Source: Acidobacteriota bacterium (GTDB lineage Bacteria > Acidobacteriota > UBA6911). Taken from it: a DNA stretch of 51,566 bases. The position numbers were made by a program, and so were the translations under genes. The notes under the pieces are model-generated. The model did not search any database and was not told the origin of the DNA. It saw only the letters and a program-made list of their open reading frames with translations. Positions within the stretch are counted from its first letter, which is position 1, and every line of letters begins with the position of its first letter. This document shows, in pieces, positions 37,698-44,839 of the stretch. The stretch is taken from assembly GCA_016934555.1 (NCBI GenBank), contig JAFGSS010000018.1, positions 1 to 51,566 on the forward strand. Direction: 5' to 3'.

Positions 37698-39497
37698 TCA
37701 GCGCGTGCGCACGCTGATGCCCAGCCAGCGCCCGGGCATGTCGACCCCGCGGATTTCCTGGTAGCCGCTGTCGAGCAGGTTGGTCCCCTCGACGGCGAGG
37801 GTGAAACGGGGGAAAGCCTTCTCCAGCGCGCCGTCGAGGATCCAGTAGCCGCGGCCGTCGGCCCGCCGCTTGTAGCGGAACGACTGCCGGGAACGGAGCC
37901 CGAGCGGAAGGGGAAAATGAAGGGCCGTAACCCAGCCGTGCCGCGCGTAGTCGAGCACGTACTTCGAGACGTAATCCACCGAACCCGCGTCGGACGCGAT
38001 CAGGCTGTAGCGCGTCTCCAGGCCCGCGCGCGGGCCCAGGGCGTGCCGGAGCCCGATTTCGATCCCCTCGGTGCGGAGGCTGCGGATGTTGGCGGTGCGC
38101 CATTTCTCTTCGGGCGCGGAGCGGATCCAGTCGATGACGCCGGTCTCCCGGCGGGAGAAGAGGGTGAGGGACCCGAGCCAGTCCGCGGCGGGGATGAAAT
38201 CGGCGCCCAGCTCGGCCGACCAGGCCCGTTCGGGCCCGAGCCGGGGGCTGGCCTCGTGATTCGGGTCGCGGTAGTGGAGTTCGGTGAAGGTGGGGATCCG
38301 GAACGCGCGGCCGATGGAGGAACGGAGCCGGATGCGCGGGGTGGCCCACAGGCTGCCGCTGAGAGAGGGGCTGACGGCGGAACCGAAGTTGGAGTAGTGA
38401 TCGAAGCGGAGCCCCGGGTAGACTGCCGCCCGCTTCAGCGCGCTCCATTCGAGTTCGGCGAACAGGCTCGTTTTCGAGAAGGAGTGGTCCCCGAGGGTGC
38501 CGGAGGCGATCCAGTCCGCACCCGCCTCCCCCCCCAGCGTGAGGGCGGCCGCGTCGGCGAGGGACACCCGGGCCCTGGCCGACGCGCCCGCGGCATGGGT
38601 GCGGTGCCGGCTCTCGAAAAGGCCGGGGGAGCGGACGTCGTACAGGAACCGGTCCCCGTGGGTCCGATACCAGCCCCGGACGTCGACGCGGATCCCGGCG
38701 GCCGCCTCGCGGCTGCGGGACACGGAGACCAGCGTCTGGCTCGTCCATTCCCTGGAAGGGGCCGGCCCGTAGAAGCCGTCGGCGCCGAATTCCCGGTCGG
38801 CGTGGGACACCGCCAGGGTCGTGGAATTCCCGATCCGCGAACGGGCGGAGAGGGTCACGCCGCGGGAATCCCGGTCGGGCCGGAATCCCGAGGAACGGCC
38901 GGCGGTGACGCTGAAGGACTGCCGGAGCGCCCCCTTTTCAAATCCCGCGGAGAGGGAGCCCTCGGCCAACCCGTGCATCCCGAGGCGGACGCCCGCGCCC
39001 GCGCCCGGGCGGAAGCCGCGCGTGATGATGTTGACGGTGCCGCCGAAGGCGTCGGCCCCGTAGATCGAGGAACCGGGCCCCAGCAGGACCTCGATCCGCT
39101 CGATCTCGTCCATGGGGACGGGGATATCGGTGTTGTGGTGCCCCGTCTGGGAATCGTTGAGCCGCACCCCGTCGACCAGGACCAGCACCTGCGAAAACGA
39201 AGACCCGCGCAGCCTGAGGTCCGCCTGCATGCCGAACGGGGCGCGGGAACCGACGTCGGCGGAAAGGGCGTGGGCCAGGATGTCGGGAACGGAGTGCACC
39301 GGGAGATCCGCGATCTCCTCCCGGGTGAGGACCGTCACGGTCCTCGACAGGTTTCCGAACGGGACCGGGTAGGCGTTGGCCGTCACCACCACCTCTTCGT
39401 CGGACGGATCCCCGGCGCCCATCAGGGAATCGGTGCAAAGAGGAGAAGCCGCCAGGAGGGAGAGAAAAAAGGGGACAACCGGAAAGCGAAACTCCAT
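37698..39497 (-). CDS. TonB-dependent outer-membrane receptor (BtuB-like plug/barrel; substrate unknown)
   Basis: EEVVVTA TonB box, VLVLVDG, IERIEVLLGPGSSIYGADAFGGTVNIIT, AFRIPTFTEL, NLLDSGY..MPGR. Confidence 0.9.
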   Translation of the reverse strand: MEFRFPVVPFFLSLLAASPLCTDSLMGAGDPSDEEVVVTANAYPVPFGNLSRTVTVLTREEIADLPVHSVPDILAHALSADVGSRAPFGMQADLRLRGSSFSQVLVLVDGVRLNDSQTGHHNTDIPVPMDEIERIEVLLGPGSSIYGADAFGGTVNIITRGFRPGAGAGVRLGMHGLAEGSLSAGFEKGALRQSFSVTAGRSSGFRPDRDSRGVTLSARSRIGNSTTLAVSHADREFGADGFYGPAPSREWTSQTLVSVSRSREAAAGIRVDVRGWYRTHGDRFLYDVRSPGLFESRHRTHAAGASARARVSLADAAALTLGGEAGADWIASGTLGDHSFSKTSLFAELEWSALKRAAVYPGLRFDHYSNFGSAVSPSLSGSLWATPRIRLRSSIGRAFRIPTFTELHYRDPNHEASPRLGPERAWSAELGADFIPAADWLGSLTLFSRRETGVIDWIRSAPEEKWRTANIRSLRTEGIEIGLRHALGPRAGLETRYSLIASDAGSVDYVSKYVLDYARHGWVTALHFPLPLGLRSRQSFRYKRRADGRGYWILDGALEKAFPRFTLAVEGTNLLDSGYQEIRGVDMPGRWLGISVRTR

Positions 39498-39549: not shown

Positions 39550-40860
39550 TCAGGCCTTCATGTCCATCTCACCGGAAAGGTAGGATTCGTAGGCCGCCAG
39601 GTCGAAGTGGCCATGGCCGGAGAGGTTGAAGAGAATGACCTTCTTTTCCCCGGCTTCGCGCGCCTCGAGCGCATGGACGACGGCGCTGTGGATGGCGTGG
39701 GCGCTTTCGGGCGCGGGAATGGTCCCCTCGCACTGGGCGAACCGGAGGGCGCTCGCGAAACAGTCCCCCTGGTTGTAGGCTTCCGCCTCGATGAACTTCC
39801 CGGCCAACAGGTGGCTCACGAGGGGGGCGGAACCGTGGTAGCGCAATCCGCCGGCGTGAACCGGGGGGGGGATGAACTTGTGCCCCAGCGTGTGCATCAT
39901 CATCAGCGGGGTGTTGCCCGCCACGTCCCCGAAGTCGTACTCGCGCGGCCCCTTGGTCAGCGTGGGGCAGGAGAGCGGTTCCACGGCGATCACCCGCATC
40001 TTCGATTCGGTCCCTTTCAGGCGCCCCTTGAGGAAGGGGAACGCCAGGCCGGCGAAATTGCTCCCGCCCCCGTGACACCCGATCACGTAATCGGGGTATT
40101 CGCCCGCCATCTCCATCTGCTTCATCGCCTCCTGGCCGATGATGGTCTGGTGGAGCAGGACATGGTTGAGCACGCTCCCGAGGGCGTACTTGGTGTCGTC
40201 CCGCTTGACGGCGTCCTCGACCGCCTCGGAGATGGCCAGGCCGAGGCTTCCGGGGGAATCTGGTCTTTCGGCCAGGGCCTGGCGTCCAGCCTCCGTCAGT
40301 TCGGAGGGGCTGGGGACGATGGTTCCCCCGTAGGCGTTGACCATGATCCGGCGGTACGGCTTCTGGTCGTAGCTGACGCGCACCATGTAGACCATGCACT
40401 CCAGCCCCATCAGCTTGCAGGCGCACGCCAGCGCGCACCCCCACTGCCCGGCGCCCGTCTCGGTGGCCAGGCGCTTGACCCCCTCCTGCTTGTTGACATA
40501 CGCCTGCATCAGGGCCGTGTTGAGTTTGTGGCTCCCCACCGGGCTGACGTGCTCCGACTTGTAGTAGATGTGGGCCGGGGTGTCCAGGGCCGCCTCCAGG
40601 GTGCGCGCGCGGTAGACCGGGCTCGGACGGTAGAGGCGGTAGATGTCCCTCACCTGGTCGGGAATCTCGACCGTAGGCTCCAGGGTCACTTCCTGCTGGA
40701 TCAGGCCCATGGGAAAGATCGGGGCCAGATCCTGGGGACCGATCGGCTCCCGGGTGCCGGGATGCAGCGCCGGGGCTAGCGGAGTCGGCAGATCCGCCTG
40801 GATATTGTAAAAATGCGTGGGAATCTCGGATTCCGGAAGAGTGATCTTGGTATCGGTCAT
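39550..40860 (-). CDS. trpB2: TrpB2-type tryptophan synthase beta chain (no adjacent trpA)
   Basis: IP..FYNI.ADLP, RPSPV.RA..LE..LDTPAHIYYK, GSHKLN, ETGAGQWG, GSVLNHV, HAGGLRYHG, NLSGHG. ATG 40860 follows AAGGAG. Confidence 0.95.
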   Translation of the reverse strand: MTDTKITLPESEIPTHFYNIQADLPTPLAPALHPGTREPIGPQDLAPIFPMGLIQQEVTLEPTVEIPDQVRDIYRLYRPSPVYRARTLEAALDTPAHIYYKSEHVSPVGSHKLNTALMQAYVNKQEGVKRLATETGAGQWGCALACACKLMGLECMVYMVRVSYDQKPYRRIMVNAYGGTIVPSPSELTEAGRQALAERPDSPGSLGLAISEAVEDAVKRDDTKYALGSVLNHVLLHQTIIGQEAMKQMEMAGEYPDYVIGCHGGGSNFAGLAFPFLKGRLKGTESKMRVIAVEPLSCPTLTKGPREYDFGDVAGNTPLMMMHTLGHKFIPPPVHAGGLRYHGSAPLVSHLLAGKFIEAEAYNQGDCFASALRFAQCEGTIPAPESAHAIHSAVVHALEAREAGEKKVILFNLSGHGHFDLAAYESYLSGEMDMKA

Positions 40861-40889
40861 GGCCTGTTCTCCTTTTAATGGAAACTGCG

Positions 40890-40918
40890 AGCATAACACA
40901 GGACGGACCGGACGTCAG
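40890..40918 (-). promoter_or_regulatory. Promoter for trpB2
   Basis: Minus strand CTGACG-N17-TATGCT with extended TG. Confidence 0.5.
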
Positions 40919-41034
40919 CGGGGATTATGCCGCTGCGGCGATTTCCGGTCCCCCTCCAAGCCGGAATCCCGAGTGTCCCCTTTTGCTCTCCCCTGGGTAT
41001 TTCTACCATCTCGAAAATGGGTAATTGCACGAAT

Positions 41035-41063
41035 TGAACCCGCCCCCCCTTCCGGAGTGTAAT
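41035..41063 (+). promoter_or_regulatory. Candidate promoter for the structured RNA (ECF-like or weak sigma70)
   Basis: TGAACC-N16-GTGTAA (ECF-like AAC/-35 and GT/-10), or TTGAAC-N18-TGTAAT. Confidence 0.4.
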
Positions 41064-41067
41064 GGAG

Positions 41068-41339
41068 GCGCAGACCAGGAAAGAACAACTTTCCCGGCGG
41101 ACTCTATCGCCGCCGGGACAAGGTTGTGGGGATACGGTTCCCGGGTCCGGTTTTCCTGGGGGGGGGCCGGACACGGGAACCATCCCCACGCGAGTGTCAC
41201 GCAAGTGACACGGGCAGAAAGAAGCGCGAACCAACCCACCCCCTGAACCGGCGGTCCTGTCCCCGCAGGACCGTTCCCGCCTGATGAACCTGCTGCGAAC
41301 ATGGGGCTCCGGCCGCCAGGCCGGGGCCCTCTTCTTTTT
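41068..41339 (+). ncRNA. Candidate novel structured ncRNA (~270 nt)
   Basis: 5'/3' closing helix, four internal hairpins including a GCAA tetraloop, + strand U-tract terminator, no convincing ORF. I recognise no known family. Confidence 0.6.
41304..41339 (+). terminator. Intrinsic terminator oriented on + strand
   Basis: GGGCTCCGGCC-GCCA-GGCCGGGGCCC followed by TCTTCTTTTT. Confidence 0.75.
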
Positions 41340-41350
41340 GGCAGCAGGCG

Positions 41351-42304
41351 TTATCGCAGGCTCCGGATGTAGTCCACCATCCGCCGGAGTTCCTCGTCCG
41401 TCATCACGGTTTCGGGCATGGCGGGGGGGTACCCCCGGGTGATTTCGGCGGCGGGGTCCACGATCGCCCGCCGGACGTAATCGTCATCGATCATCACGGC
41501 GCGCTCCCTTCCGTCCCGGTCCAGGACCGCCCCCTCCCTGCCGTAAATCCCCTTCAGGGTGGGGCCGACCATGGGGCTTCCGTCGACCGAATGGCACTCG
41601 GTGCACGACTTGCGGTTCAGCAGCTCCAGGGCCGATTCCGGGGCCGGGGCGGGAGCCGGGGAAGCGGGTTTCAGGAAGCGTGCAGGAATGTCGTCCTCCT
41701 CGCCGAAGTACCAGGCTTCAAAACCCTCGACCGGGACGACCACGGCCTTGGCGTTCATGATCGCGTGGCTCACGCCGCAGATGACGGTGCATTCGATGTC
41801 GAAGGTCCCCAGCTGCGTCGGAACGAACCAGGTGTAATTCACCTTCCCGGGCACCACGTCCTGCTTGATCCGGAAAGCCGCGATGAAAAACCCGTGGATC
41901 ACGTCCAGGGAGTGGAGCTCGAGCTTCACCGGCCGGTCGGCCGCCAGCAGCAGGTGGGAGGTGCGCTTCCCGTTGGGATACCGGAAGGACCACGCCCACT
42001 GCCTCCCCGTGACCTCGATGACCATGGCGTCGCGCGGGACCTCGCGCATGTAGCTGTAGTTGGTCCACCCGTAGAGGAACATCGTGATGAAAATCAGCGT
42101 CGGGATCGCCGTCCAGGCGAACTCCAGCCATCCGTTCCCCTCGATGTCCACTCCCCGTGGGTGGCGCTTCCGGTTGTAGCGGATGACGAACCAGACCAGC
42201 GTGGCCGTAATGAAGACGAGGAAGACCGCGCTGAGCACGAGGATGAAGAGAAAAACCGCATCCACCCTTCCCGCGGCGCTTGAGGCTTGTGGAATGAACG
42301 GCAT
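41351..42304 (-). CDS. coxB: Cytochrome c oxidase subunit II with fused C-terminal cytochrome c (caa3 type)
   Basis: LEFAWTAIP, QWAWSFRYP, DVIHGF, CuA CTVICGVSHAIM, heme CTECH..GP.LKG, PPAMP. Confidence 0.93.
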   Translation of the reverse strand: MPFIPQASSAAGRVDAVFLFILVLSAVFLVFITATLVWFVIRYNRKRHPRGVDIEGNGWLEFAWTAIPTLIFITMFLYGWTNYSYMREVPRDAMVIEVTGRQWAWSFRYPNGKRTSHLLLAADRPVKLELHSLDVIHGFFIAAFRIKQDVVPGKVNYTWFVPTQLGTFDIECTVICGVSHAIMNAKAVVVPVEGFEAWYFGEEDDIPARFLKPASPAPAPAPESALELLNRKSCTECHSVDGSPMVGPTLKGIYGREGAVLDRDGRERAVMIDDDYVRRAIVDPAAEITRGYPPAMPETVMTDEELRRMVDYIRSLR

Positions 42305-42308
42305 GGCT

Positions 42309-42599
42309 TCACCTGTAGAAGAGATCGGAAAAGAGCAGCCCGATGACCAGGACCAGCAGCCCCAGGGTGACGAAGACCAGCCCCGTCAGCAGCGGTTTTT
42401 CATACTTCAGGTGCATGAAATAGTAGAAGATCAGCCCCGCCTTGACCGGCGTGATCACCAGCATGGCCCAGACCGACAGGGAGGGATGAAGCGTCGTGCC
42501 CGCCGCGACCAGAGCTCCCGTCAGGCCGAGGAGCACGAGCCAGACGCGGACCAGGGTCCGGTAAGGCATTACGTGGGTTTCCGATCCGGTCCGGTCCAT
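42309..42599 (-). CDS. coxD: Cytochrome c oxidase subunit IV
   Basis: VW..LL.LT, KAGLI..YFMHLKYE. Confidence 0.88.
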   Translation of the reverse strand: MDRTGSETHVMPYRTLVRVWLVLLGLTGALVAAGTTLHPSLSVWAMLVITPVKAGLIFYYFMHLKYEKPLLTGLVFVTLGLLVLVIGLLFSDLFYR

Positions 42600-42608
42600 C
42601 CTCCCCCC

Positions 42609-43226
42609 TCAGGCCGCCAGGTAGAACAGGGGCAGCAGAAACACCCAGATCACGTCGACCAGGTGCCAGTAGAGTCCGGCGTTTTCGAGCTTGTGGTATT
42701 CCCCGCCCGTGATCCGGTGCCGGAGCACGAGCGCCAGCATGACGGCCAGCAGCACGATGCCGGCCATGACGTGGAGCCCGTGCAGCCCCGTCATGCTGTA
42801 GTAGAGCCCGAAGAAGATCTGCTCCCCCTGGGGCCTTCCGGCCAGCAGGGGGGAGTCGGGATAGAAACCCCGGGCGATCTCCCCGCTCCACTCGAAGTAC
42901 TTGTTGACGAGGAAGAGGACCCCCAAAGCGATCGTGCCGGCGAGGCTCGCCAGGGCCCTGCGCCGCTGCCCCGTCCGGAGTGCCGTGATCGAGGCCGCCA
43001 TCGTGAGGCTGCTCGTCAGCAGGATGACGGTGTTCGCGACCCCGATCACGGCGTCGAGGTGGCCGCCGGCCTCGTGGAATTCGTTCGGGTACCGCGCCCG
43101 GTAGGCGGCATAGAGGATGAAGAGCCCCCCGAAGAGCAGGATCTCGGTGAAGAGAAAGAGCCACATCCCGAACCGGGCGCCTTCGTGGTCCACATGCCCC
43201 CCATGGGCCCCCGCGGCCGTGGTCAT
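42609..43226 (-). CDS. coxC: Cytochrome c oxidase subunit III
   Basis: GMWLFLFTEILLFGGLF, NTVILLTSS, MTGLHGLHV, GLYWHLVDVIW. ATG 43226 overlaps the coxA stop. Confidence 0.93.
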   Translation of the reverse strand: MTTAAGAHGGHVDHEGARFGMWLFLFTEILLFGGLFILYAAYRARYPNEFHEAGGHLDAVIGVANTVILLTSSLTMAASITALRTGQRRRALASLAGTIALGVLFLVNKYFEWSGEIARGFYPDSPLLAGRPQGEQIFFGLYYSMTGLHGLHVMAGIVLLAVMLALVLRHRITGGEYHKLENAGLYWHLVDVIWVFLLPLFYLAA

Positions 43227-44839
43227 TCGGAAACCTCCGGGTTGAAGCGGTAGGGGCGCCCCTGGATCTCGGGGATGACGTCGAAATTCTCCGCCGGCGG
43301 AGGGGAACCGATGCGCCATTCGAGCGTCACGCCCCCCCACGGGTTGGACTCGGCCCTTTTTCCCCGCAGCAGGGCCACGACCAGGTTGGCGAAGAAAAGC
43401 ACCAGCCCCGCCGCCAGGATGAAGCTCCCCACGCTCGCGATGACGTGGCCCGTGTGGTACTGCGGCAGGTGGGTGAAATAGCGCCGCGGCATCCCCATGT
43501 ACCCCAGCACCAGCATGCCGAAATAGAGCAGGTTGAAGCCGACGAAGATGGGGGCCCAGGCGAGGTTCGCCACCCTTTCGTTGTAGGTCCGGCCGAACAT
43601 CTTGGGGAACCAGTAGAGGAGCGCGGCGAAAAAGGCCACACCCGTCCCCCCGAACATCACGTAATGGAAATGGCCGACGATGAAATAGGTGTCGTGCAGG
43701 TGGACGTTCACCGCCAGGGCCCCCTGCATCAGCCCCGTCAGCCCGCCGATGGCGAAGAGAAACACGAAGGTGAGCGCATACAGCATCGGGGGCCGGACCT
43801 CGATGGATCCCTTGTAGAGGGTGGAGGTCCAGTTAAAGACCTTGATGGCGCTGGGCACCGCCACGAGAAAGGTGAAGAGGGAGAAGAGGAGGTTGGCCTG
43901 TTCCGACATCCCGCTCGTGAACATGTGGTGGCCCCAGACCAGGGAGCCCAGAAAGGCGATGGCCATCGAGGAATAGGCGATGGCTTTGTACCCGAAAACC
44001 GTGCGATGGGCGAAGGTCGGGAGGATTTCGGTGATGGCCCCCATCGCGGGCAGAATCATGATGTAGACCGCCGGGTGGGAATAGGTCCAGAACAGGTGCT
44101 GGTACAGGATCGGGTCCCCCCCCTTGGCCGGGTCGAACACGCCGATGCCGAACACCCGCTCCGCGATGACGAGCAGGAGCGTGATGCCGACGATGGGGGT
44201 GGCCAGGAGCTGGACCCAGGCGGTTCCGTACAGCGACCAGGCGAACAGCGGCATCCGGTGCCACGTCATGCCCGGGGCCCGCAGCCGGTGGATGGTGGTG
44301 ATGAAATTGAGCCCGGTCAGGATGGAGCTGAACCCCAGCATGAAGACCCCGGTGAGCCCCAGGGTGACGTTCGTGCCGGTGCGGACGCTGAAGGGGACGT
44401 AGAACGTCCACCCGGTGTCGGGGGCCCCGTCCCCCGTGAAGAGGGAGACGAACACGATGACGGTGCCGGCGACGAAGGCGTACCACGACATCAGGTTCAG
44501 GCGCGGGAAGGAGACGTCCCGGGCTCCGATCATGATGGGGAGGAAGAAGTTCCCGAACACGGCCCCGAGCCCCGGCAGGACGAACATGAAGATCATGATG
44601 ACGCCGTGGACCGTGAAGAAGGCGTTGTACACCTGCGGCGCAAACAGCGGCGGGTCGAGCACCAGCTGCTCCACCCGCATGAGCACCCCGATGACGACGG
44701 CGACGAAGAACAGCCCTGTCATGGTGGCCAGGTACAGAATCCCGATCCTCTTGTGGTCGGTGGAAAAAATCCAGCCCGCAATTCCCCCGCGCCCGCCCGT
44801 ATCCAGGTAGCTCGACATCTCAGGCCCCTCCGCGGTCAT
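43223..44839 (-). CDS. coxA: Cytochrome c oxidase subunit I, A2 family
   Basis: DHKRIG, HGVIM, YSHPAVY (A2 signature), WGHHM, HDT..VGHFH, MPRRY; D-channel Asp (GARD) and K-channel Lys present. Confidence 0.96.
   Translation of the reverse strand: MTAEGPEMSSYLDTGGRGGIAGWIFSTDHKRIGILYLATMTGLFFVAVVIGVLMRVEQLVLDPPLFAPQVYNAFFTVHGVIMIFMFVLPGLGAVFGNFFLPIMIGARDVSFPRLNLMSWYAFVAGTVIVFVSLFTGDGAPDTGWTFYVPFSVRTGTNVTLGLTGVFMLGFSSILTGLNFITTIHRLRAPGMTWHRMPLFAWSLYGTAWVQLLATPIVGITLLLVIAERVFGIGVFDPAKGGDPILYQHLFWTYSHPAVYIMILPAMGAITEILPTFAHRTVFGYKAIAYSSMAIAFLGSLVWGHHMFTSGMSEQANLLFSLFTFLVAVPSAIKVFNWTSTLYKGSIEVRPPMLYALTFVFLFAIGGLTGLMQGALAVNVHLHDTYFIVGHFHYVMFGGTGVAFFAALLYWFPKMFGRTYNERVANLAWAPIFVGFNLLYFGMLVLGYMGMPRRYFTHLPQYHTGHVIASVGSFILAAGLVLFFANLVVALLRGKRAESNPWGGVTLEWRIGSPPPAENFDVIPEIQGRPYRFNPEVSE

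What the first reader, a model, noticed from the sequence alone, without database searches (positions are those of the whole stretch)
41035..41339. Orphan, apparently independently transcribed multi-branched RNA between trpB2 and coxB
Seen in sequence: both flanking genes are on the minus strand, yet the gap has a + strand promoter-like element (TGAACC-N16-GTGTAA, 41035-41062) and a hairpin whose U tract is on the + strand only (41304-41339). Between them the sequence folds by hand into a closed structure. The 5' CGCAG..CAGG (41069-41079) pairs with 3' CCTG-CTGCG (41289-41297). Hairpin A spans 41086-41126. Hairpin B (41126-41189) has about 28 bp in four stacked helices, with G-U pairs at the tip. 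Hairpin C is GTGTCAC-GCAA-GTGACAC (41194-41211, GNRA loop). Hairpin D spans 41251-41274. The G-U pairs and GNRA loop favour the + strand as the functional one. I see no hallmarks of tmRNA, RNase P, SRP, T-box or the common riboswitches, and trpB2 has its own nearby promoter candidate. Inference: an undescribed structured ncRNA, possibly under an ECF sigma factor. This is my best candidate for a new system in the window.
Basis: partly seen in the sequence, partly recalled or inferred. Interest (0 to 1): 0.85.

Follow-up and report, generated by a model that had tools for sequence, protein, structure and literature searches.

The report
New regulator-controlled small RNA family, Acidobacteriota
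The gap between the tryptophan-synthase-like gene and the cytochrome oxidase gene holds a real, separately transcribed, about 270-base structured RNA that belongs to a previously undescribed RNA family of one uncultured group of Acidobacteriota, whose job is still unknown.

Summary
Window 41070-41339 (+) is a non-coding RNA gene with its own sigma-70-type promoter and an intrinsic terminator. It is not an orphan. A covariance model of its 3' domain finds it in 23 of 30 genomes of the genus (up to 6 paralogs per genome) and in 27 of 50 other genomes of the family. It finds none in 86 genomes of the other families of the class, and 2 weak hits in 150 genomes drawn from the phylum. Hairpins B and D and the terminator covary. 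Hairpin A is kept with different stem sequences. Three segments do not vary: a run of 7 or more G in the hairpin B loop, AAGCGCGAGCAA (AAGCGCGAACCA in the window), and UUCCCGCC-N-AACCUGCUGCGAACA. The promoter has two conserved regulator sites upstream (a TGGGTA-N4-TACCCA palindrome and a half-palindrome abutting -35), so an ECF sigma factor is not supported. Rfam gives no hit, the true 6S RNA lies elsewhere, and no ORF is conserved. Short RNA-library contigs from three studies cover only this RNA. Function is not shown. My best guess is a regulator-activated trans-acting riboregulator (about 45%), with protein sequestration the main rival. It is a new family of a known kind.

The parts
40994..41009 (+). 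Regulator site 1: near-palindrome TGGGTA-N4-TACCAT (family consensus TGGGTAnTTnTACCCA)
   Evidence: Read. It lies at a fixed distance upstream in 27 of 30 unique orthologs that match the composite promoter pattern.
41018..41033 (+). Regulator site 2: TGGGTAATTGCACGAA. The left half matches site 1, it starts 24 bp downstream of the start of site 1, and it abuts the -35 hexamer.
   Evidence: 27 of 30 orthologs. It is also present with -35 and -10 in 16 of 20 further loci, 18 of them paralogs.
41034..41039 (+). -35 hexamer TTGAAC (only TTG is conserved in the family)
   Evidence: The 6S RNA promoter of the same genome is TTGATT-N17-TATGAT.
41058..41063 (+). -10 hexamer TGTAAT, 18 nt after -35 (17 nt and TTTAAT/TCTAAT/TTAAAT/TTATAT in 24 of 27 matching orthologs)
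41070..41339 (+). Predicted transcript, about 270 nt. The start is inferred as 7 nt after -10 (+/-3). The end is the terminator T tract.
   Evidence: Inference. RNA-library contigs of three studies lie wholly inside it: 41081-41234, 41081-41293 and 41109-41300.
41086..41126 (+). Hairpin A (core CCCGGCGG 41093-41100 paired with CCGCCGGG 41110-41117)
   Evidence: A hairpin with a different stem sequence sits just 5' of hairpin B in the homologs. By a strict count this holds for 20 of 34. By my reading of the 34 folds it holds for all of them.
41126..41189 (+). Hairpin B: P1 GUGGGG/CCCCAC, P2, P3 CCGG/CCGG, and an apical loop with an invariant G run (9 G here, 41158-41166)
   Evidence: 34 of 34 unique homolog sequences fold alone into the same three-tier hairpin. 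88.4% of cells are paired against 82.7 +/- 0.7 in shuffles, and 9 of 18 pairs show compensatory changes.
41194..41211 (+). Hairpin C, GUGUCAC-GCAA-GUGACAC: a lineage-specific insert
   Evidence: Present, with a compensatory change, only in the closest relatives (L009, L050). A different, longer hairpin occupies this place in the clade of L018, L019, L027 and L038, and nothing does in most others.
41222..41249 (+). Conserved, apparently unpaired block AAGCGCGAACCAACCCACCCCCUGAACC (family consensus AAGCGCGAGCAAACACUCAUCCC)
   Evidence: AGCGC, A, C and A are invariant across 29 sequences. The only predicted partner helix never varies.
41250..41275 (+). Hairpin D, GGCGGUCCU / AGGACCGUU, with a C-rich loop
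   Evidence: 9 pairs, 5 of them with compensatory changes, 99.6% of cells paired.
41276..41301 (+). Invariant, apparently single-stranded 3' segment CCCGCC-UGAUG-AACCUGCUGCGAACA
   Evidence: CCUGCUGCGAACA is identical in 29 of 29 aligned orthologs. CCUGC(U/A) is repeated 1-3 times in paralogs.
41303..41339 (+). Intrinsic terminator: 12-bp G+C-rich hairpin plus T tract
   Evidence: 8 of its 9 modelled pairs show compensatory changes.

Best explanation
Window 41070-41339 (+) is a bona fide, independently transcribed, non-coding small RNA gene. It is one member of a previously undescribed RNA family confined, among the genomes searched, to one family of Acidobacteriota. Records carrying it are titled Acidobacteriota or Acidobacteria MAGs, one of them 'UBA6911'.

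Transcription starts from a housekeeping-type promoter (TTGnnn-N17/18-TnTAAT). I infer that this promoter depends on a dimeric DNA-binding regulator that occupies a conserved palindrome (TGGGTA-N4-TACCCA) and a second half-palindromic site abutting -35. Transcription ends at an intrinsic terminator that faces the 3' end of the convergent cytochrome oxidase operon.

The conserved core has four parts: hairpin A; the three-tier hairpin B, which displays an invariant G run in its loop; an unpaired AAGCGCGAGCAA block; and hairpin D followed by the invariant unpaired UUCCCGCC...AACCUGCUGCGAACA just before the terminator.

Shown: the gene, its strand, its family, the covarying helices, the conserved promoter architecture, and its presence in RNA libraries.

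Inferred: it acts in trans as a regulator-induced riboregulator, using its invariant single-stranded segments (the 3' CCUGCUGCGAACA, the C-rich UCCC-type stretches, the G-run loop) to contact other RNAs. I put base-pairing at about 45% and protein sequestration at about 30%. The signal may relate to oxygen or oxidative stress. That rests only on the RNA co-occurring with the oxidase operon and on a few look-alike promoters before OsmC-like and cytochrome c peroxidase genes.
For: Structure beyond chance: z = -5.65.

Homologs:
- blastn finds the 3' half in 11 of 24 genomes of the genus.
- The covariance model R1 finds 23 of 30 genomes of the genus, 44 hits in all, with up to 6 per genome.
- It finds 27 of 50 family genomes other than the window's own, and 0 of 86 genomes in the other 21 families of the class.
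- In a draw from the phylum it gives 2 weak hits in 150 genomes.
- DNA pattern scans found 13 Acidobacteriota MAG records among 20 genome hits and 19 true homologs among 37 metagenome hits.

Covariation:
- 3' domain: 98.4% of cells paired against 90.5 +/- 0.6 in shuffles. 13 of 24 pairs are compensatory (0 of 500 shuffles reach that). Slid controls pair 37-51%.
- Hairpin B: 88.4% against 82.7 +/- 0.7. 9 of 18 pairs are compensatory. Slid controls pair 35-50%.
- 34 of 34 hairpin B sequences fold alike on their own.

Promoter:
- The composite pattern is present in 27 of 30 orthologs, with a 17-nt spacer in 24 and an 18-nt spacer in 3.
- It is present in 16 of 20 further loci.
- The 6S promoter of the same genome lacks the upstream sites.

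Non-coding: the longest ORFs differ in place, frame and sequence in 26 orthologs, and the 48-aa ORF changes frame in the 92%-identical relative.

Expression hint: in three RNA libraries from three studies, one short contig each (154, 213 and 190 nt) lies wholly within 41081-41300, with no cover of either flanking gene.

Strand: G-U pairs in hairpin D, the terminator T tract and the promoter.

No Rfam family matches.
Against: - The function is not shown by anything here.
- Duplex energies of four conserved segments against the translation-start regions of 4,633 crude gene calls were no better than against internal control regions. For example, means were -18.7 against -19.3 kcal/mol.
- Exact complements of the 3' segment elsewhere in the 30 genomes of the genus are about as frequent as a reversed control: by my count from the table, about 17 against 10. 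The one in this genome lies inside an era-like coding region.
- The regulator palindrome is not enriched genome-wide against a reversed control in 5 genomes: 7 v 9, 3 v 11, 0 v 2, 5 v 4 and 9 v 8. The 'regulon' is therefore small or uncertain.
- The strict sigma-70 scan does not call the promoter.
- Contigs cannot show strand, ends or level, and RNA libraries can carry DNA.
- Seven genomes of the genus, 76-99% complete, have no hit.
Confidence: 0.62

Rival explanations
1. Protein-sequestering or protein-scaffolding RNA, working like CsrB/RsmZ, CrcZ, 6S or GlmY. The invariant G-run loop and the two similar GCGA(G/A)CA-containing segments would be binding sites for a protein (or for the ribosome or RNA polymerase), and induction of the RNA would titrate that partner.
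For: - The RNA is long (200-390 nt) and of variable length, with a variable 5' part and a fixed structured core.
- Paralog number varies from 1 to 6.
- A palindromic regulator site lies upstream of a housekeeping promoter.
- The invariant sequences sit in loops or linkers where no covariation is seen.
- No convincing mRNA target was found.
- An Hfq-like ORF scores at the Pfam cut-off in 5 of 5 genomes tested.
Against: - No partner is identified.
- CsrA is not found in this genome (96.6% complete) nor in two other carriers, G016 and G042.
- GGA is not enriched: 177 observed against 192 +/- 11 in shuffles.
- The true 6S RNA is elsewhere.
Confidence: 0.28
2. Chiefly a local, cis-acting element of the cytochrome oxidase operon. 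Convergent transcription, a shared terminator hairpin, or antisense pairing with read-through oxidase transcripts would set oxidase mRNA 3' ends or stability.
For: - By my comparison of coordinates, the RNA gene lies within 0.4 kb of the oxidase subunit II gene, tail to tail, in 14 of the 18 genomes of the genus that have this gene.
- Within the genus, 18 genomes have both, 5 have the RNA only, 0 have the oxidase gene only, and 7 have neither.
- On the - strand the window's terminator hairpin has no U tract, so oxidase transcripts might read into the RNA gene.
Against: - The RNA does not overlap the coding region. The oxidase stop codon is at 41351-41353 and the RNA ends at 41339.
- In 4 of the 18 genomes the two genes are 4 kb apart or on different contigs, and 5 genomes carry the RNA without this oxidase gene.
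- Paralogs sit at unrelated loci yet keep the same core and promoter.
- Related genomes are not independent, and adjacent genes are lost or missed together in draft assemblies.
Confidence: 0.07
3. Not an RNA gene: a small protein gene (the 48-aa ORF 41062-41208 or the 99-aa - strand ORF 41003-41302), a repeat or mobile-element remnant, or a chance G+C-rich fold.
For: ORFs of 48-99 aa exist on both strands. Any G+C-rich sequence folds stably, and the - strand also has z = -4.29.
Against: - There are no Pfam hits for either ORF.
- No ORF is conserved in place or frame among 26 orthologs.
- The locus is single-copy in this genome.
- Substitutions are compensatory in helices rather than codon-like.
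- The promoter and terminator are conserved.
Confidence: 0.03

Closest known systems
GacA/UvrY-controlled RsmX/Y/Z and CsrB/C RNAs of Gammaproteobacteria (properties recalled, not tested beyond the rows below)
   Same: Separately transcribed RNAs ending in a terminator. Copy number and length vary between species. A housekeeping-type promoter is preceded by a conserved palindromic site for a dedicated regulator. A conserved core goes with a variable remainder.
   Different: No Rfam match. GGA motifs are not enriched. CsrA is not found in this genome or in two other carriers. Different phylum. The conserved motifs here are a G run, GCGAGCAA and CCUGCUGCGAACA.
Qrr RNAs of Vibrio: multi-copy paralogs sharing a regulator-dependent promoter and an invariant seed (recalled)
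   Same: Paralogous RNA genes are scattered in the genome. Each has the same regulator-dependent promoter architecture and an invariant unpaired segment. Copy number differs between species.
   Different: Qrr RNAs are about 100 nt and use a sigma-54 promoter (recalled). This RNA is 200-390 nt, has a sigma-70-type promoter and a large covarying hairpin. No targets are known.
6S RNA (Rfam RF00013)
   Same: A structured RNA of a few hundred bases, assembled from RNA libraries when its flanking genes were not, with its own promoter and terminator.
   Different: The genome's real 6S RNA is on another contig at 80.3 bits. This locus gives no 6S match even at E up to 10. It has no long closing helix with a central bubble conserved across species.
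RoxS/RsaE of Firmicutes: C-rich-motif RNA under redox-sensing regulators (recalled)
   Same: Unpaired C-rich stretches (hairpin D loop AUCCCCG, UUCCCGCC) could pair with G-rich ribosome-binding sites. There is a possible link to respiration or redox state.
   Different: No sequence or Rfam relation. This RNA is much longer, carries a G-run loop, and belongs to a different phylum. The link to respiration is only co-occurrence.

Membership tests
6S RNA (RF00013) | Match to the family covariance model at or above its gathering score | tested here: not met
   No match at this locus at the gathering threshold or at E up to 10. The genome's 6S RNA is at contig C75:35661-35844, 80.3 bits.
6S RNA (RF00013) | Long terminal closing helix and central bubble conserved across species | tested here: not met
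   The 5'/3' closing stem of the window is absent from other species, whose 5' ends differ.
CsrB/RsmZ-type CsrA sponge | Many GGA motifs, above chance | tested here: not met
   177 GGA in 27 orthologs against 192 +/- 11.5 in mononucleotide shuffles. 184 of 200 shuffles reach the observed count. Placement in loops was not scored.
CsrB/RsmZ-type CsrA sponge | CsrA encoded in the same genome | tested here: not met
   PF02599 was not found in this genome (96.6% complete) nor in carriers G016 and G042. It was found in G009, G011 and G014.
Any described RNA family (Rfam 15, 4227 models) | Match at the gathering score | tested here: not met
   0 matches in the 51.6-kb window and in 20 homolog loci. 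E-value mode gives only microRNA-like or terminator-like sub-threshold hits.
Trans-encoded bacterial small regulatory RNA (general kind) | Own promoter and intrinsic terminator, no conserved ORF, conserved in related genomes | tested here: met
   Promoter pattern in 27 of 30 orthologs. The terminator covaries. No conserved ORF. Found in 23 of 30 genomes of the genus.
Trans-encoded bacterial small regulatory RNA (general kind) | Discrete transcript of the predicted strand and size | tested here: inconclusive
   Short contigs in three RNA libraries cover only the RNA. Contigs give no strand, ends or level.
Trans-encoded bacterial small regulatory RNA (general kind) | Identified target mRNAs or protein partner | tested here: inconclusive
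   Duplex scan of 4,633 start regions shows no excess over internal controls. Exact complement search shows no clear excess over the reversed control.
   After the conserved TTG the three -35 positions vary (AAC, AAG, CGC, ATC, ATT, TTT, CAT...). The -10 is TnTAAT at 17-18 nt. The expected ECF consensus is recalled.

The most novel reading that the evidence does not exclude
The family is a lineage-specific signal-output system in which one dedicated regulator drives a battery of 1-6 paralogous structured RNAs. These would work by a mode not yet described for small RNAs. The invariant loop-displayed run of 7 or more G, presented on a covarying three-tier hairpin, would act as a decoy for a C-rich nucleic-acid site. 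One candidate is the 3' end of 16S rRNA, with which a computed duplex of -11.9 kcal/mol is possible. The genome's own 16S end was not found, so I used a recalled canonical end. Another candidate is a protein specific to this group. The duplicated GCGA(G/A)CA segments would bind a second partner.
Probability: 0.12. Interest if true: 0.85.

Novelty: new member of a known kind. Interest (0 to 1): 0.58.

Why it matters
I found no report of a small regulatory RNA in Acidobacteriota in three full-text searches. The genomic study of the UBA6911 lineage mentions no sRNA, non-coding RNA or riboswitch in its main text (term search only; supplements not seen).

This family offers a well-defined entry point. 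It has a covariance model, about 50 members, a sharply conserved regulator-binding promoter that should allow the regulator and its signal to be found, and invariant segments that are obvious targets for mutagenesis. It also gives annotators a way to label an otherwise 'empty' intergenic region that recurs next to the oxidase operon in this group.

Its importance is limited by the unknown function and by its confinement to one uncultured family.

Tried and rejected
- 6S RNA: rejected.
- CsrA sponge: rejected for this genome.
- Coding ORF: rejected.
- Repeat or mobile element: rejected. The locus is single-copy in its own genome, with no transposase-type neighbours seen in the flanks annotated.

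Long-range helices in the 3' domain (CGCG/UGCG and GC/GC, predicted) never vary among orthologs. By my reading of the sequences they are broken in some paralogs. I left them as unsupported.

A pseudoknot between the G-run loop and C-rich stretches was considered. The G run is invariant, so covariation cannot test it, and loss or retention of C runs in paralogs gave no clean pattern.

Target search:
- Duplex scan of start regions: no excess over controls.
- Exact complement search in the 30 genomes of the genus: no clear excess. The extra hit in the window's own genome is inside a coding region.

Regulon:
- A position-weight scan of the own genome gave 5 look-alike promoters. They precede genes for an NTP-transferase, a zf-HC2 protein, an OsmC-like protein, a response-regulator receiver and a di-haem cytochrome c peroxidase.
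- The palindrome is not enriched against a reversed control in 5 other genomes.
- The regulon is therefore only a lead.

The RNA-library runs had small shares of the query's words (0.04-0.18). I draw no habitat claim from them. Parts of the stretch without cover are not evidence of absence.

The 16S 3' end could not be found in this draft genome. The one motif match is not in an rRNA context, so the anti-Shine-Dalgarno idea stays untested.

My regex count of hairpin B was faulty (1 of 20) and is not used. One search lists the paralogs that have hairpin B.

Supplements of papers were not seen.
Full report
**The observation**

The 490-bp gap lies between a PALP-family (TrpB-like) gene (39550-40899, - strand) and a COX2/cytochrome c fusion gene (41351-42304, - strand).

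- The + strand 41060-41345 folds at -152.2 kcal/mol, against -121.0 +/- 5.5 for 200 dinucleotide shuffles (z = -5.65). The - strand gives z = -4.29.
- An intrinsic terminator (12 bp, 10 G-C, T tract) is called on the + strand at 41303-41330.
- The strict sigma-70 scan calls no promoter. The promoter claim rests on comparative data.
- Rfam 15 gives nothing at gathering thresholds in the whole window. At E up to 10 it gives only microRNA-like or terminator-like sub-threshold hits.

**It is a family, not an orphan**

- The locus is single-copy in its own 3.25-Mb draft genome (96.6% complete).
- blastn found the 3' half in 11 of 24 other genomes of the genus, and the full length at 92% identity in one.
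- In the eight loci with a match to the oxidase subunit II gene, I took the DNA just beyond that gene's 3' end, and the RNA motifs lie in that stretch.
- One DNA pattern for the invariant 3' segment was scanned against about 185,000 species genomes. It returned 20 places: 13 in records titled Acidobacteriota or Acidobacteria MAGs (one titled UBA6911), and 7 that I judge to be chance matches in other sequence, mostly coding.
- A metagenome scan returned 37 places: 19 true homologs and 18 coincidences in other sequence, mostly coding.
- A covariance model of the 3' domain was built from 29 sequences, with 125 positions and 24 pairs. It gives these results:

| Set searched | Genomes with a hit |
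|---|---|
| Genus (incl. the window's genome) | 23 of 30 (44 hits; 6, 5, 3, 3 and 3 copies in five genomes) |
| Family, other than the window's genome | 27 of 50, across five genera |
| Other 21 families of the class | 0 of 86 |
| Draw from the phylum | 2 of 150, both weak and short (30.4 and 28.8 bits) |

- None of 20 homolog loci has an Rfam match.

**Anatomy and structure support**

Predicted lengths run from 207 to 390 nt. The window's copy, at about 270 nt, is one of the short forms. The shared core, from 5' to 3', is as follows.

- **Hairpin A.** Stems differ in sequence between species. By a strict count, 20 of 34 have a helix of 5 or more bp ending within 14 nt of hairpin B. By eye a hairpin is there in all 34 folds.
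- **Hairpin B** (41126-41189).
  - All 34 unique versions fold on their own into P1 GUGGGG/CCCCAC, an internal loop, a variable P2, a short P3, and a 13-15-nt loop carrying (G/A)UAGGGGGGG.
  - On the MAFFT alignment, 88.4% of cells pair against 82.7 +/- 0.7 in shuffles.
  - 9 of 18 pairs have compensatory changes (18 of 500 shuffles reach that).
  - Slid controls pair 35-50%.
- **Unpaired block** AAGCGCGAGCAA(A)C (AAGCGCGAACCAAC in the window).
- **Hairpin D** (41250-41275). 5 of 9 pairs are compensatory, and one G-U pair is invariant.
- **Invariant 3' segment** UUCCCGCC-N(2-6)-AACCUGCUGCGAACA. CCUGCUGCGAACA is identical in 29 of 29.
- **Terminator.** 8 of 9 pairs are compensatory.
- **The 3' domain as a whole.**
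  - 98.4% of cells pair against 90.5 +/- 0.6 in shuffles.
  - 13 of 24 pairs are compensatory (0 of 500 shuffles reach that).
  - Slid controls pair 37-51%.

- The closing stem (41069-41079 with 41289-41297). Other species have unrelated 5' ends.
- The GNRA hairpin C. It is found only in the closest relatives, is replaced by another hairpin in one clade, and is absent elsewhere.

The two long-range helices that RNAalifold adds never vary, so they are unsupported.

**Not coding**

Neither the 48-aa + strand ORF nor the 99-aa - strand ORF has a Pfam match. In 26 orthologs the longest ORFs differ in position, frame and sequence. In the 92%-identical relative the 48-aa frame is shifted by an extra G in the G run.

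**Promoter**

Alignment on the conserved CGAATTG shows, in 27 of 30 unique orthologs:

- site 1, TGGGTAnTTnTACCCA, near-palindromic;
- site 2, starting 24 bp downstream of the start of site 1: TGnGTAnTTnCnCGAA, fused to a TTGnnn -35;
- a 17-nt spacer (24 cases) or an 18-nt spacer (3 cases, the window's clade);
- a TTTAAT, TCTAAT, TTAAAT, TGTAAT or TTATAT -10.

Site 2 with -35 and -10 is also present in 16 of 20 further loci, which are mostly paralogs.

The same genome's 6S RNA promoter is TTGATT-N17-TATGAT and has no such upstream sites. The core promoter is therefore of the housekeeping type, and the upstream sites are specific to this family.

I infer a dimeric activator. The 5-N4-5 geometry recalls CRP/FNR-type or NarL/LuxR-type sites, but that is recollection and was not tested. 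The ECF idea fails because the bases after TTG are not conserved.

A position-weight scan of the own genome found five weaker look-alike promoters. They precede genes for an NTP-transferase, a zf-HC2 protein, an OsmC-like protein, a response-regulator receiver (followed by a hybrid kinase) and a di-haem cytochrome c peroxidase. However, the palindrome is not enriched over a reversed control in five other genomes. Any regulon beyond the RNA genes is only a lead.

**Expression**

Of 18 runs listed, 15 held small shares of the query's words. I laid four runs.

- In three RNA libraries from three studies, exactly one contig each matched: 154 nt, 213 nt (211 laid) and 190 nt. Each lies wholly inside the RNA: 41081-41234, 41081-41293 and 41109-41300.
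- One is 95-99% identical to the window. Two are 90-95% identical and share several of the differences seen in the 92%-identical relative.
- Neither flanking gene is covered in these three.
- The fourth run, probably DNA, covers the flanks.

This is a weak but consistent hint of an abundant, separate transcript. Contigs cannot give strand, ends or level.

**Context and distribution**

The downstream convergent gene is the last gene of an oxidase operon ordered COX1, COX3, COX4, COX2-cytochrome c.

| In the genus (30 genomes) | This oxidase gene present | This oxidase gene absent |
|---|---|---|
| RNA present | 18 | 5 |
| RNA absent | 0 | 7 |

In 14 of the 18 the two are within 0.4 kb, by my comparison of coordinates. 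These genomes are kin, and adjacent genes are lost or missed together, so this is a lead towards an oxygen-related role and not a test.

CsrA is absent from this genome and from two other carriers, but present in the three paralog-rich genomes tested. An Hfq-like ORF scores at the Pfam cut-off in 5 of 5 genomes. GGA motifs are not enriched.

**How it most likely works**

Shown: a regulator-type promoter, a covarying structured core, and invariant unpaired segments.

Inferred: a dedicated regulator switches on one to six paralogous RNAs, which act in trans.

I favour base pairing through the invariant 3' segment and the C-rich stretches, at about 45%. Invariant unpaired stretches next to a terminator, and paralogs that differ mainly there, are typical of seed regions. 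Protein sequestration is the main rival, at about 30%. A local role at the oxidase operon is a minor one.

My attempts to find targets were uninformative in this 66.5% G+C genome.

**Novelty**

Three full-text searches found no description of such an RNA:
- 'UBA6911': 19 papers, listing seen.
- Acidobacteria + small RNA + covariation + intergenic: 3 papers, listing seen.
- Acidobacteriota / sRNA / non-coding RNA: listing seen.

The genomic preprint on the UBA6911 lineage has no occurrence of sRNA, non-coding or riboswitch in its main text (passages only, supplements not seen).

Noticed in passing
window 41351-44839 (- strand): The haem-copper oxidase operon runs in the order COX1 (43223-44839), COX3 (42609-43340), COX4_pro (42309-42599) and last COX2 fused to a cytochrome c domain (41351-42304). 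Subunit II comes last rather than first. The listed ORFs of COX1 and COX3 overlap by about 118 bases, so one start is probably miscalled.
   Followed up: partly
own genome contigs C232:3999(+), C148:9234(-), C138:5278(+), C84:12407(+), C228:2158(+): Promoters resembling the RNA's (site 2 fused to -35, 17-nt spacer, A/T-rich -10) precede genes for an NTP-transferase, a 63-aa zf-HC2 protein, an OsmC-like protein, a response-regulator receiver with a hybrid kinase, and a di-haem cytochrome c peroxidase. This may be a small stress regulon of the same regulator.
   Followed up: partly
G009 (6 hits), G011 (5), G014, G007, G002 (3 each); loci L110-L129: Larger genomes of the genus carry several diverged paralogs of the RNA. 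One subtype is short (about 230 nt) and has its own promoter variant. Another subtype carries two or three CCUGC(U/A) repeats before the terminator. Four loci (L114, L121, L124, L126) lack the usual promoter. L121, L124 and L126 also lack the G run.
   Followed up: partly
G011:C1:4220509-4220524: A near-perfect copy of the regulator palindrome lies about 180 bp downstream of one paralog (4220186-4220327). It could be the promoter of a further, tandem family member or of another target.
   Followed up: no
G009, G011, G014 versus G000, G016, G042: CsrA (PF02599) is found in the three paralog-rich genomes tested, and not in three genomes with one or two copies. This may simply track genome size.
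   Followed up: no
own genome C75:35661-35844 (L022:1501-1684): The canonical 6S RNA (80.3 bits) has a clear TTGATT-N17-TATGAT promoter. It is a useful reference for housekeeping promoters in this lineage.
   Followed up: yes
window 37698-39497 (- strand): A TonB-dependent receptor (Plug plus beta-barrel) lies downstream of the TrpB-like gene on the same strand.
   Followed up: no
window 40861-41033: The TrpB-like gene is transcribed divergently from the RNA gene, and this arrangement recurs in several relatives (L009, L010, L015, L110). The regulator sites sit in the shared intergenic region and could also affect that gene.
   Followed up: no
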